Below are positions 59,398-60,507 of a stretch of 64,000 bases of DNA, in pieces; positions within the stretch are counted from its first letter, which is position 1, and the number at the start of each line of letters is the position of its first letter. This stretch comes from an uncultured Alphaproteobacteria bacterium (GTDB lineage Bacteria > Pseudomonadota > Alphaproteobacteria > RF32 > CAG-239): the NCBI GenBank assembly GCA_945835885.1, contig CAMAJR010000001.1, positions 7,193 to 71,192 on the forward strand, given 5' to 3'. Below the pieces are notes generated by a model. It was not told where the DNA came from, did not search any database, and saw only the letters and a program-made list of their open reading frames with translations. The translations under genes were made by a program, and so were the position numbers.

Positions 59398-60507
59398 TCA
59401 ACTCCCCGGTAGCAATTTGTCGTAAAGAGCCATACCGTAATCAGTGCCGAGTTCGCCGATTGGATTTATAAAGTATTCGACTATGACAGCATTTGCGGCA
59501 TCAACGGCAACCGATGCCAAGGCAACTTTGAATCCCATTACCAAAATGTCTTGAAGCATTTTGCTTGGCGCAACCGACGTGAATGAGCTGACTTGTTGCA
59601 AAATATAGTAAGCAAGCCAAATCAAAAAACCGAGTTCTAAAATAAGCTTACCTAAGGCAATAGCACTCGGCAGGGCGCTACCGGCCGCTTTTAAGTAAGA
59701 GTTTGTTAAAACGATGACAACATTGCAATACCAACAGGAATCCTTACCAATGCCGTAACTTGCCCGTATATTATCCATCGTGCATTGTTTTGCCTCTGCG
59801 GTGCCGCGGCCTTCCGACGGCTTGTAATTAGGTGATGAACGAGTGTTGTTTCCGCCACTACTGCCTCCGGAAGAATTGTTGCCGGTTGCGCCGTTAATGT
59901 TTTTATCCACCACAGCATTATCCCAATCGTGTGTTTGACGCGGCGTGTTGTCATCTAAGCCGTTTAAAGCTTCTTTTCCGAAATTGAATGCCGCTTTATG
60001 TTGGTCACCTAAATACGCGTTAAAAAAGTCGTGACCGACCGCATCGGTAAATAATTTCGTTCCCCGTGTGCCGCTATAATTGCGCATAAAACCATTGGCG
60101 ACTTTTCCGCCGTGAACCAATCTTGCGTGACCGTGGCTGACGGTCTTTTGGGCTAACTGCAATGCATATTGCCAGTTTGTGCCGGCTTTGTTTTTGATGT
60201 ATTTCATCAATTCTTCCTGATTTTTAGAAGCAAAACCGCGTGAACTCTCAAACCAAGATTTACCGCCATACAAAACTTCTGACCATGTGATCCTTGAGTT
60301 TGATTTGTGACGTTCTTGAATAACTTTTGCTACGTTTTCCATCGGTGTTTTGTATTTGTCTCCGGAAGCACCGGCTTCTAAGGCGATGGTCGCGGCAATA
60401 CGCAACTCGGTTAAACTGTAATTGGCAAAAGCAGATTTTGGCAACATAAACAGGCATATTACCATTATAAAGCACAGTATAAGGTTCGGTATAATCTTTT
60501 TCATCAT
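59398..60507 (-). CDS. secreted SleB/CwlJ-like cell-wall hydrolase domain fused to two TM helices carrying the paralog motif
   Basis: 369 aa. Signal peptide. N-terminal LRIAATIALEAGASGDK...NVAKVIQER resembles the Hydrolase_2 (SleB) motif AEAGGE...AVA.VI.NR. Gly/Ser/Asn linker. C-terminal LGFLIWLAYYILQQVS and VMGFKVALASVAVD. ATGA start/stop overlaps on both sides. Confidence 0.55.
   Translation of the reverse strand: MMKKIIPNLILCFIMVICLFMLPKSAFANYSLTELRIAATIALEAGASGDKYKTPMENVAKVIQERHKSNSRITWSEVLYGGKSWFESSRGFASKNQEELMKYIKNKAGTNWQYALQLAQKTVSHGHARLVHGGKVANGFMRNYSGTRGTKLFTDAVGHDFFNAYLGDQHKAAFNFGKEALNGLDDNTPRQTHDWDNAVVDKNINGATGNNSSGGSSGGNNTRSSPNYKPSEGRGTAEAKQCTMDNIRASYGIGKDSCWYCNVVIVLTNSYLKAAGSALPSAIALGKLILELGFLIWLAYYILQQVSSFTSVAPSKMLQDILVMGFKVALASVAVDAANAVIVEYFINPIGELGTDYGMALYDKLLPGS

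What the first reader, a model, noticed from the sequence alone, without database searches (positions are those of the whole stretch)
59398..60507. SleB/CwlJ-like cell-wall hydrolase domain fused to a two-helix membrane anchor carrying the paralog motif
After a signal peptide, the segment LRIAATIALEAGASGDK...ENVAKVIQER matches the hallmark of the Hydrolase_2 (SleB) amidase family (AEAxGE...AVA.VI.NR). The C-terminus carries the same GFLIWLA-YYIL helix that opens the membrane cores of the neighbouring VirB6-like genes. The gene is translationally coupled to both neighbours. Two different PG-hydrolase types in one array suggests a dedicated wall-breaching module.
Basis: partly seen in the sequence, partly recalled or inferred. 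Interest (0 to 1): 0.6.

Follow-up and report, generated by a model that had tools for sequence, protein, structure and literature searches.

The report
Wall-cutting enzyme on a split VirB6
This gene encodes an exported, membrane-tethered cell-wall-cutting enzyme of the SleB type that is also the front half of a secretion-channel protein (VirB6-like) split into two adjacent genes, an arrangement conserved in uncultured rumen and gut Alphaproteobacteria and not described in the searched literature.

Summary
The ORF 59398..60507 (-), 369 aa, is real and reads: signal peptide, periplasmic domain, G/N/S-rich linker, two hydrophobic helices.

**Hydrolase domain.** A direct Pfam scan of this protein finds no Hydrolase_2 (PF07486) match. 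The homology is still real:
- A profile of 26 family N-domains finds 506 proteins. All 53 sampled are PF07486.
- hhalign between the two profiles gives 99.7% probability, E 2.7e-25.
- The PF07486 set hits SleB structures at E 8e-17.
- The SleB catalytic Glu position aligns with E44, which is invariant in 41 family members.

SleB is a lytic transglycosylase, not an amidase.

**C-terminal helices.** They are more than an anchor. They are the first part of a VirB6/TrbL core. The next gene (56663..59386) has its own signal peptide and supplies the rest. Together the two genes align colinearly with the full-length paralogues.

**Comparative picture.**
- A sister gut clade has one unsplit gene at this position (85 of 88 protein clusters).
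- In the split clade the hydrolase sits on the front half (about 18 loci), on the back half (8 loci), or is absent (4 loci).
- One unsplit orthologue carries a VirB1-type SLT domain instead.

**Likely function (inferred).** A tethered wall-opening enzyme for a VirB6-based envelope machine. No other T4SS gene lies in the window. This is a new variant of a known kind.

The parts
59398..60507 (-). Target gene, 369 aa: signal peptide + Hydrolase_2-like domain + linker + N-terminal part of a VirB6/TrbL core ('N-half')
   Evidence: ORF list. An identical protein, P0001, occurs on at least 10 metagenome contigs. Architecture by local HMMs: Hyd 28-167 (140 bits), Nmod 241-365 (199 bits).
60424..60507 (-). 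Sec signal peptide, residues 1-28 (…LPKSAFA|N)
   Evidence: Hydropathy peak at residues 5-23 and an AxA motif. Present in all 41 aligned homologues.
60007..60423 (-). Divergent Hydrolase_2 (SleB/CwlJ-type) domain, residues 29-167
   Evidence: hhalign A2 vs A3: 99.7%, E 2.7e-25. The profile finds 506 proteins, and all 53 sampled are PF07486. pLDDT is 82-95 over most of residues 31-160 (74 for block 81-90). Best structural matches are the SleB catalytic domain 4fet_B (TM 0.60) and phage SleB-type hydrolases (prob 0.97), all with non-significant E-values.
60376..60378 (-). Codon of E44, the candidate catalytic glutamate (LEAG)
   Evidence: Invariant in 41 homologues. Aligned by hhalign to the invariant E of the PF07486 set. 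That E in turn aligns to the first E of GESRGE in SleB 4fet/4f55. It corresponds to E151 of B. anthracis SleB only if the chain starts at residue 32, which is my recollection.
59788..60006 (-). Low-complexity G/N/S/D-rich linker, residues 168-240
   Evidence: pLDDT below 50 for residues 208-244. Composition. Length is variable and the region is poorly aligned among homologues.
59413..59787 (-). N-module of the VirB6/TrbL core, residues 241-365: conserved C242 and C258-W-Y-C261, TM1 about 281-306 (GFLIWLAYYIL), TM2 about 317-347 (MGFKVALA), INPI…DYG tail
   Evidence: The most conserved part of the family. Colinear with the first part of the full-length paralogues. BLAST to the M23 fusion E 1e-15. 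HMM hits in every full paralogue of 28 loci.
56663..59386 (-). Downstream partner gene ('C-half', 907 aa): own signal peptide, periplasmic loop, remaining TM helices of the VirB6/TrbL core, long Lys/Ala/Gln-rich C-terminal extension
   Evidence: TrbL PF04610 positions 96-192 at residues 105-207 (E 0.0024, below cut-off). Colinear alignment. Ccore HMM 444 bits. Residues 14-484 match residues 301-794 of the single L034 ORF, E 4e-36.
50090..56647 (-). M23 peptidase fused to a complete VirB6-like core, followed by a very long repeat-rich extension (2185 aa)
   Evidence: PF01551 E 5e-11. Nmod 320-425 and Ccore 463-580. HxxxD (HLGSD) and HxH (HLH) motifs are visible in the translation.
60504..62048 (-). 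Upstream VirB6-like paralogue (514 aa), whose stop overlaps the target's start
   Evidence: TrbL E 0.0016. Aligned. ATGA overlap.
62126..64000 (-). VirB6-like paralogue (953 aa in full; its start lies beyond the window end) with an N/G/D-rich repeat tail
   Evidence: The full gene in L001 hits TrbL at E 3.5e-7, 30.6 bits against a cut-off of 25.9. Repeats.
49016..50035 (-). Double-HTH (XRE-type) regulator, conserved immediately after the array
   Evidence: PF01381 E 7.6e-24, two stretches. Same position in L005, L006, L007 and L032.

Best explanation
**What the protein is.**
- It is exported by a Sec signal peptide.
- It carries a periplasmic SleB/Hydrolase_2-type peptidoglycan-cleaving domain, most likely a lytic transglycosylase using E44.
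- A flexible linker of about 70 residues follows.
- It ends in a two-helix hairpin in the inner membrane.

**What the hairpin is.** It is the first part of a VirB6/TrbL-type membrane core. The rest of that core is made by the next, translationally coupled gene. That gene has acquired its own signal peptide, so the periplasmic loop after the hairpin is still exported.

**Proposed mechanism.** The two polypeptides are proposed to reassemble into one VirB6-like subunit. This places the wall-cutting domain on a leash at the periplasmic face of a VirB6-based envelope machine. There it would open the peptidoglycan locally. This is the job VirB1 does for classical type IV secretion systems. The neighbouring M23-VirB6 fusion would cut the peptide cross-links.

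**Shown here:** the domain homologies, the invariant Glu, the gene fission, the conserved synteny, and the alternative placements of the hydrolase.

**Inferred:** enzymatic activity, reassembly of the two halves, and the link to secretion.
For: **Hydrolase_2 homology.**
- 10 of 41 homologues hit PF07486; the best is 30.5 bits against a cut-off of 27.
- The N-domain profile gives 506 hits at E<=1e-3 in 1.84 billion representatives.
- All 53 sampled hits are PF07486, best E 1.6e-27.
- hhalign gives 99.7%, E 2.7e-25.
- That set hits SleB 4f55/4fet at E 8e-17.
- E44 is invariant and aligns with the SleB catalytic Glu position. The Glu is essential for lytic transglycosylase activity of SleB (PMC12331253).
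- The model is confident for the domain. The closest folds are SleB-type.

**Split VirB6.**
- Target residues 231-369 plus the downstream gene are colinear with four full-length paralogues. The only insertion is the stop/start and the new signal peptide.
- The single 839-aa ORF of L034 matches the target C-terminus (173-299, E 1e-19) and then the downstream gene (301-794, E 4e-36), abutting.
- 85 of 88 clusters related to that ORF have both parts in one chain.

**VirB6 identity.**
- TrbL is above cut-off for the 953-aa paralogue.
- The top PDB folds for the unsplit orthologue are TrwI/VirB6 of R388 (prob 0.97, E 0.02).

**Conservation.** The same gene order is seen in L005, L006, L007, L032, L034 and in the GTDB loci.

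**The slot attracts PG-lytic domains.**
- Hydrolase_2 sits on the N-half (about 18 loci) or the C-half (8 loci).
- SLT PF01464 (E 1.4e-13) sits on an unsplit orthologue.
- M23 sits on the next paralogue.
Against: - This protein itself has no PF07486 hit at E<=1.
- Family profiles do not reach SleB directly in the PDB.
- All structural matches have non-significant E-values. The model of the unsplit orthologue is of low confidence (mean pLDDT 51.5).
- Several near-invariant Hydrolase_2 positions are changed here: NR becomes ER, QFS becomes WFES, THYH becomes NGFM. Activity is therefore not assured.
- No VirB4, VirB8-11 or VirD4 gene lies in the 64-kb window or in the flanks of related loci. The array sits among housekeeping genes, so the link to a T4SS is unproven.
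- About four split loci and the whole unsplit clade lack the hydrolase. It is therefore dispensable for the core function.
Confidence: 0.6

Rival explanations
1. The hydrolase domain is catalytically dead. It serves as a peptidoglycan-binding module that fastens the VirB6-like complex to the wall, in the manner of inactive LytM or SLT domains in other machines.
For: Several positions that are nearly invariant in canonical Hydrolase_2 (N of NR, Q of QFS, the H-Y-H stretch, the PxW tryptophan) are not kept in this family. The protein falls below every Pfam threshold.
Against: The one residue known to be essential, the catalytic Glu, is invariant across 41 sequences that are only 34-83% identical to the window protein. 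The fold core is confidently predicted.
Confidence: 0.15
2. The pair is a housekeeping, membrane-tethered wall-remodelling enzyme. The VirB6-like array is a lineage-specific membrane protein family with no role in secretion. Alphaproteobacterial SleB homologues can act in normal growth.
For: The array sits among housekeeping genes with no other T4SS gene nearby. A stand-alone SleB matters for growth and PG cross-linking in Zymomonas mobilis (bioRxiv 10.64898/2026.07.21.739787).
Against: The membrane cores match TrbL/VirB6 by Pfam and by fold ranking. Tandem arrays of large VirB6 paralogues are a hallmark of the Rickettsiales rvh T4SS, whose genes are scattered over five islets (PMC2653234). 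An orthologue carries the VirB1-type SLT domain.
Confidence: 0.15
3. The hydrolase is released by cleavage in the linker. It then acts outside the cell as an antibacterial or host-directed factor, in analogy to VirB1* or to T4SS-delivered PG-hydrolase toxins.
For: A long disordered linker separates enzyme and anchor. Rumen and gut habitats are competitive. The paralogues carry huge, repeat-rich, fast-evolving extensions.
Against: No processing site or secretion signal other than the Sec peptide is recognisable. The domain is N-terminal and Sec-exported to the producer's own periplasm. No immunity-like gene was identified next to it, although the neighbouring genes were not examined for one.
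Confidence: 0.07
4. The Hydrolase_2 resemblance is a chance motif match, and the N-terminal domain has some other function.
For: No direct Pfam, NCBIfam or PDB hit for this protein.
Against: Profile-level statistics are overwhelming. The independent structure ranking points the same way.
Confidence: 0.02

Closest known systems
SleB / CwlJ spore-cortex lytic enzymes and stand-alone 'cell wall hydrolase' proteins (Pfam Hydrolase_2, PF07486)
   Same: Homologous catalytic domain (hhalign 99.7%). Same position of the catalytic Glu. Similar predicted fold.
   Different: Very divergent: it falls below the Pfam cut-off and several conserved positions are replaced. It has no PG-binding N-terminal domain as in SleB. 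It is fused through a long linker to membrane helices of a VirB6-like protein. It occurs in a Gram-negative non-sporulating lineage.
VirB1 and other T4SS-dedicated lytic transglycosylases (SLT domain, PF01464)
   Same: Proposed role: local opening of peptidoglycan for an envelope-spanning T4SS (role of VirB1 as summarised in PMC2653234). An orthologue of the split pair carries a true SLT domain at the same N-terminal position (P0271).
   Different: Different enzyme family. VirB1 is a soluble, separately encoded protein. Here the enzyme is covalently part of a VirB6-like subunit.
Rickettsiales vir homologue (rvh) T4SS, islet A: virB3-virB4a-virB6a-e
   Same: Tandem array of five or six large, highly divergent VirB6/TrbL paralogues with long flanking extensions, in an alphaproteobacterial chromosome. 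One paralogue (virB6d) is reported split in R. bellii OSU 85-389 (PMC2653234).
   Different: No virB3/virB4 next to the array here. Two paralogues carry PG-hydrolase domains. The split is ancient and conserved, with a new signal peptide, rather than a strain-specific disruption.
TrwI/VirB6 of plasmid R388 (PDB 7o3v, 8rt9)
   Same: Best structural match of the unsplit orthologue's model (prob 0.97). The Pfam TrbL domain spans both halves.
   Different: TrwI is a single chain of roughly 260-270 resolved residues, without an enzymatic domain or long extensions. The match E-value (0.02) and the model confidence are weak.

Membership tests
Hydrolase_2 (PF07486, SleB/CwlJ-type cell wall hydrolase) | Match to the Pfam model at or above the gathering score (27 bits) | tested here: not met
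   No hit at E<=1 for the window protein. Among 41 homologues, 10 hit at E<0.1 and only P0043 exceeds the cut-off (30.5 bits); P0025 and P0035 reach 26.6 and 26.4.
Hydrolase_2 (PF07486, SleB/CwlJ-type cell wall hydrolase) | Homology of the domain to bona fide members at profile level | tested here: met
   The N-domain profile finds 506 proteins at E<=1e-3. All 53 sampled are PF07486. hhalign 99.7%, E 2.7e-25 over 133 columns. The same set hits SleB 4f55/4fet at E 8e-17.
Hydrolase_2 (PF07486, SleB/CwlJ-type cell wall hydrolase) | Catalytic glutamate (first E of the E-A/S-x-G-E motif) | tested here: met
   E44 is invariant in 41 sequences. It aligns to the invariant E of the PF07486 set and to the first E of GESRGE in SleB. 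The second E of the motif is not kept.
Hydrolase_2 (PF07486, SleB/CwlJ-type cell wall hydrolase) | SleB-like catalytic-domain fold | tested here: inconclusive
Hydrolase_2 (PF07486, SleB/CwlJ-type cell wall hydrolase) | Peptidoglycan-cleaving (lytic transglycosylase) activity | not testable with these tools
   Needs a biochemical assay.
VirB6/TrbL (PF04610) | Match to the Pfam TrbL model | tested here: inconclusive
   The target alone has no hit; it would cover only about the first 60 model positions. The partner gene scores E 0.0024, below cut-off. The paralogue of 953 aa scores 30.6-31.8 bits against a cut-off of 25.9. Six of nine paralogue cores score E<0.01.
VirB6/TrbL (PF04610) | Target C-terminus plus next gene together reproduce the full paralogue core | tested here: met
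   Colinear alignment. A single-ORF orthologue in L034 with abutting matches. 85 of 88 related clusters are unsplit.
VirB6/TrbL (PF04610) | VirB6 fold | tested here: inconclusive
   The top PDB hits of the unsplit orthologue's model are TrwI/VirB6 chains (prob 0.97, E 0.02-0.06, TM 0.38-0.44). The model's mean pLDDT is only 51.5. The sequence profile finds nothing in the PDB.
Type IV secretion system locus | Presence of VirB4 and other core genes (VirB8-11, VirD4) with the VirB6 genes | tested here: not met
   None in the 64-kb window or in +/-10 kb of related loci. Whole genomes could not be searched. In Rickettsiales such genes are scattered, so absence here is not decisive.
VirB1 / SLT lytic transglycosylases (PF01464) | SLT domain | tested here: not met
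   No SLT hit in the target. An orthologous unsplit protein, P0271, has one (E 1.4e-13). The target is an analogue at most, not a member.

The most novel reading that the evidence does not exclude
The six-gene array is a self-contained envelope machine built from VirB6-like subunits, not an accessory islet of a canonical T4SS. It has its own covalently attached wall-opening enzymes: SleB-type, M23 or SLT, exchanged between subunits and even between the two halves of a fissioned subunit. It would be specific to uncultured gut and rumen Alphaproteobacteria and work without the classical VirB4/VirB11/VirD4 ATPases.
Probability: 0.12. Interest if true: 0.8.

Novelty: new variant of a known kind. 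Interest (0 to 1): 0.5.

Why it matters
**A different solution to wall crossing.** Machines that cross the cell envelope need a way through the peptidoglycan. In classical T4SSs this is a separate soluble SLT enzyme (VirB1). Here a different lytic family is covalently built into a VirB6-like inner-membrane subunit. A sister subunit carries an M23 peptidase, and an orthologue carries SLT. This makes the N-terminus of VirB6 a natural docking point for wall-opening enzymes. It also gives a genetic handle on where VirB6 sits relative to the wall.

**A natural domain-boundary experiment.** The pair is a clean example of fission of a polytopic membrane protein. Fission occurred at a periplasmic loop with gain of a new signal peptide, and an enzymatic domain appears on either half. 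This marks domain boundaries in VirB6.

**An unstudied clade.** It flags a widespread, unstudied alphaproteobacterial gut and rumen clade that carries a Rickettsiales-like VirB6 expansion.

Tried and rejected
**Searches that found nothing useful.**
- Direct Pfam and NCBIfam scans of the target gave no relevant hit.
- phmmer of the target and of P0025 against the PDB gave only noise.
- Family profiles A1 and A2 against the PDB did not reach SleB.
- The VirB6-like core profile A4 against the PDB found nothing.
- tblastn against plasmids gave no match.
- phmmer of three conserved downstream genes (426, 207 and 171 aa) against the PDB gave nothing usable.
- The literature search found no paper holding both 'VirB6' and 'SleB', and nothing on VirB6-hydrolase fusions.

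**Tools and papers unavailable.**
- The two SleB structure papers (PMC3621120, PMC3415495) are not held. The numbering E151 therefore rests on my recollection plus the chain offset.

**Weak structural results.** Foldseek searches returned the expected families at the top, but with non-significant E-values.

**Phylogeny of the hydrolase domains.**
- The first script timed out.
- The second run gave 99% support for a clade of N-half plus C-half domains, but it was corrupted by NaN distances and is discarded.
- The corrected run is unresolved: the combined clade got 0 of 100 bootstraps. Mean identity is 23% both between N-half-type and C-half-type domains and between N-half-type and free-standing domains.
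- Whether the domain moved between the halves or was acquired twice therefore remains open. HMM scores of P0056 and P0057 (97 and 80 bits, against 60 bits or less for free-standing proteins) only hint at relocation.

**Rejected readings.**
- The idea that the 807-aa first gene is VirB4 is rejected. It is another VirB6-like paralogue.
- The phage label of MT835708.1 is rejected. The record holds the same array.
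Full report
**1. The observation**

The ORF 59398..60507 (minus strand, 369 aa) exists as described. Its layout is:
- a Sec signal peptide (residues 1-28, …KSAFA|N);
- a region that AlphaFold models confidently (pLDDT 82-95 for most of residues 31-160; 74 for block 81-90);
- a disordered G/N/S/D-rich linker (about residues 168-240);
- two long hydrophobic helices (about 281-306 and 317-347).

Its ATG overlaps the stop of the upstream gene (ATGA). The next gene's ATG (59386) follows the TGA after 11 nt that contain GGAG. An identical protein occurs on at least ten independent metagenome contigs.

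**2. Is the N-terminal domain a SleB/Hydrolase_2 domain?**

Neither Pfam nor NCBIfam reports PF07486 for this protein even at E<=1. The PDB holds no sequence match.

The family, however, connects to Hydrolase_2:
- The protein has 50 homologues in the large database. All are from uncultured Alphaproteobacteria.
- Of 41 aligned members, 10 hit PF07486. One is above the gathering score: P0043 at 30.5 bits against 27.
- A profile of 26 trimmed N-domains (A2) was searched against 1.84 billion representative proteins. It returned 506 proteins at E<=1e-3.
- Beyond the family itself, these are mostly 130-200-aa proteins covered end to end.
- All 53 that I sampled are PF07486, best E 1.6e-27.
- hhalign between A2 and this set gives 99.7% probability, E 2.7e-25 over 133 columns.
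- The same set hits the SleB catalytic-domain structures 4f55 and 4fet at E 8e-17.

The Glu that is invariant in the PF07486 set aligns to the first E of GESRGE in SleB. It also aligns to E44 of the window protein. E44 is invariant in all 41 family members, which are 34-83% identical to the window protein. A catalytic Glu is essential for SleB's lytic transglycosylase activity (PMC12331253).

Structure ranking agrees but is not significant alone:
- The best TM-scores in the PDB are SleB 4fet_B (0.60) and 4f55 (0.51).
- The two best BFVD hits are phage 'cell wall hydrolase SleB' proteins (prob 0.97 and 0.75).

Several other near-invariant Hydrolase_2 positions are replaced: NR becomes ER, QFS becomes WFES, THYH becomes NGFM.

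Conclusion: this is a real but strongly divergent Hydrolase_2 domain. Activity is inferred, not shown. The family is a lytic transglycosylase family, not an amidase family.

**3. What the 'anchor' is**

The most conserved part of the family is the C-terminal 130 residues. These hold C242, C258-W-Y-C261, GFLIWLAYYILQQVSS, KMLQDILVMGFKVALA and INPI..G.DYG.

The same module opens the membrane core of every neighbouring large gene. BLAST gives E 1e-15 to the M23 fusion, 5e-7 to the 807-aa gene and 5e-5 to the 953-aa gene.

Those genes are VirB6/TrbL-like:
- The 953-aa paralogue passes the Pfam cut-off (30.6 bits against 25.9).
- Six of nine paralogue cores score E<0.01.
- The Pfam model spans both the module and what follows it.

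The gene downstream of the target (56663..59386, 907 aa) lacks the module. It starts with its own signal peptide and then continues exactly where the target stops. Target residues 231-369 were concatenated with the downstream protein and aligned with four full paralogues. The only extra material is the stop/start junction and the new signal peptide.

The topology is consistent. The hairpin ends in the periplasm, and the partner's signal peptide exports the following loop. This corresponds to the large periplasmic loop of VirB6 in the five-TM model cited in PMC2653234.

**4. Comparative evidence**

The array is conserved in order in every locus long enough to show it. The order is:
1. an 800-aa VirB6-like gene;
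2. a gene of about 80 aa;
3. a VirB6-like gene;
4. a VirB6-like gene of about 460-514 aa;
5. the N-half;
6. the C-half;
7. the M23-VirB6 fusion;
8. the double-HTH regulator.

This order was seen. The hosts are rumen, gut and faecal Alphaproteobacteria MAGs.

With three local HMMs (Hyd, Nmod, Ccore) I classified the loci:

| Type | Architecture | Loci |
|---|---|---|
| A | [SP-Hyd-Nmod] + [SP-Ccore] | about 18, including the window |
| B | [SP-Nmod, 166-263 aa] + [SP-Hyd-Ccore] | 8 (L025-L028, L030-L033; sequences) |
| C | split, without hydrolase | 4 (L007, L017, L021, L024) |
| D | one unsplit gene | L034 |

L034 is GenBank MT835708.1, labelled 'UNVERIFIED Bacteriophage sp.'. It plainly holds the same bacterial array. 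Its 839-aa ORF matches the target C-terminus at residues 173-299 (E 1e-19). It matches the downstream gene at residues 301-794 (E 4e-36). Its neighbours are orthologous to the window's 514-aa gene (E 2.5e-75) and to the M23 gene (E 2.4e-69).

A database search with that ORF found 88 clusters. Of these, 85 have Nmod and Ccore in one chain. Some are abundant: 397 member sequences in one cluster, and contigs up to 244 kb. The unsplit form is therefore the rule in a sister clade, apparently from the human gut. The split is a conserved trait of the window's clade.

Among 193 proteins surveyed I found 49 Hyd-Nmod, 11 Hyd-Ccore, 7 Nmod alone, and no Hyd-Nmod-Ccore.

One unsplit orthologue, P0271, carries a VirB1-type SLT domain (PF01464, E 1.4e-13) ahead of Nmod-Ccore. 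It sits after the usual 464-aa paralogue.

A model of the unsplit orthologue is of low confidence (mean pLDDT 51.5; 62-83 in most of the membrane core). Its top PDB matches are nevertheless TrwI/VirB6 of R388 (prob 0.97, E 0.02).

**5. Mechanism**

*Shown:*
- an exported, divergent SleB-type domain with the catalytic Glu kept;
- its tethering through a flexible linker to the first two helices of a VirB6-like core;
- the rest of that core in the coupled next gene;
- alternative attachment of the same kind of domain to the other half, always on the periplasmic side;
- a second PG hydrolase (M23, with HxxxD and HxH motifs visible) on the next paralogue.

*Inferred:*
- the halves reassemble;
- the enzyme cuts glycan strands locally while M23 cuts peptide links;
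- this opens the wall for a VirB6-based envelope structure, the role VirB1 has in classical systems (PMC2653234).

*Weak point:* no VirB4, VirB8-11 or VirD4 gene lies in the window, which is otherwise housekeeping (PlsX, FabH, UvrC, RecN, BamB/D, Der, transketolase, SucCD and others). None lies in the flanks of related loci either. In Rickettsiales the T4SS genes are scattered over five islets, so this is not decisive. Whole genomes could not be searched here.

**6. Comparison and novelty**

The closest known pieces are:
- Hydrolase_2/SleB, for the enzyme;
- VirB1, for the proposed role;
- the Rickettsiales virB6a-e array, for the context, including a reported strain-specific split of virB6d;
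- TrwI/VirB6, for the fold.

What differs is the covalent union of a SleB-type enzyme with a VirB6-like subunit. The conserved fission with a new signal peptide also differs. So does the appearance of the enzyme on either half.

No paper in the searchable library mentions VirB6 together with SleB. I rate this a new variant of a known kind, of moderate interest.

**7. Open points**

- Whether the hydrolase moved between the halves or was gained twice is unresolved. The corrected NJ bootstrap gives no support, and an earlier run was invalid.
- The function of the conserved genes after the regulator (770, 171, 426 and 207 aa) is unknown.

Noticed in passing
L034 (GenBank MT835708.1), whole record: This record, deposited as 'UNVERIFIED: Bacteriophage sp.' from human faeces, carries the same VirB6-like array (922, 448, 839 and 972 aa, then an HTH-sized ORF). 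It looks like a bacterial (alphaproteobacterial) chromosomal fragment, not a phage.
   Followed up: partly
P0271 (contig in ERZ22666135, no DNA available): An unsplit orthologue of the target-plus-partner pair carries an SLT lytic transglycosylase domain (PF01464, E 1.4e-13) at its N-terminus, where the window's clade has Hydrolase_2.
   Followed up: partly
window 50531..50749 and 52594..52683 (inside gene 50090..56647): The 2185-aa M23-VirB6 protein has in-frame tandem repeats: 5.2 copies of a 42-nt unit (…EPTIEPERTEERAQ…) and 3 copies of a 30-nt Pro/Thr/Glu unit. The C-terminal extension varies from about 935 to 2185 aa between relatives.
   Followed up: no
window 62563..63327 (inside gene 62126..64000+): A very long Asn/Gly/Asp/Thr-rich low-complexity tail made of nested 30/54/69/123-nt repeats sits in the 953-aa VirB6-like paralogue. 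Its length differs between otherwise identical contigs (953 against 1023 aa in L001 and L002).
   Followed up: no
L001 4911..5141 (just beyond the window's right end); equivalents in L005, L006, L032: A conserved gene of 75-82 aa with two hydrophobic segments lies between the first and second VirB6-like genes. It might be a VirB3- or VirB2-like component, but it has no family hit.
   Followed up: no
window 44083..48925 (-): Four genes after the HTH regulator (770, 171, 426 and 207 aa) keep their order and approximate sizes in L005, L006, L032 and L034. They have no Pfam or PDB match of note, apart from a faint SSSPR-51 hit. They may belong to the same system.
   Followed up: partly
window 16784..17482 (-): A type IVb pilin-like gene (PilS N-terminal, E 1.2e-10; bundlin, E 1.9e-6) sits among housekeeping genes.
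   Followed up: no
L014 8487..9617: In the RUG772 MAG the target's orthologue is broken into 281-aa and 92-aa ORFs inside the N-module. This is either a frameshift from assembly or a pseudogene.
   Followed up: no
L025 (CAVKTH010000003.1): A contig carrying the full array is binned as 'Bacteroidaceae bacterium'. Given that all other carriers are Alphaproteobacteria, this is probably a binning error.
   Followed up: no
window 30934..31346 (+): Bacterial RNase P RNA class A (275 bits). There are no tRNA genes in the whole 64-kb window.
   Followed up: no
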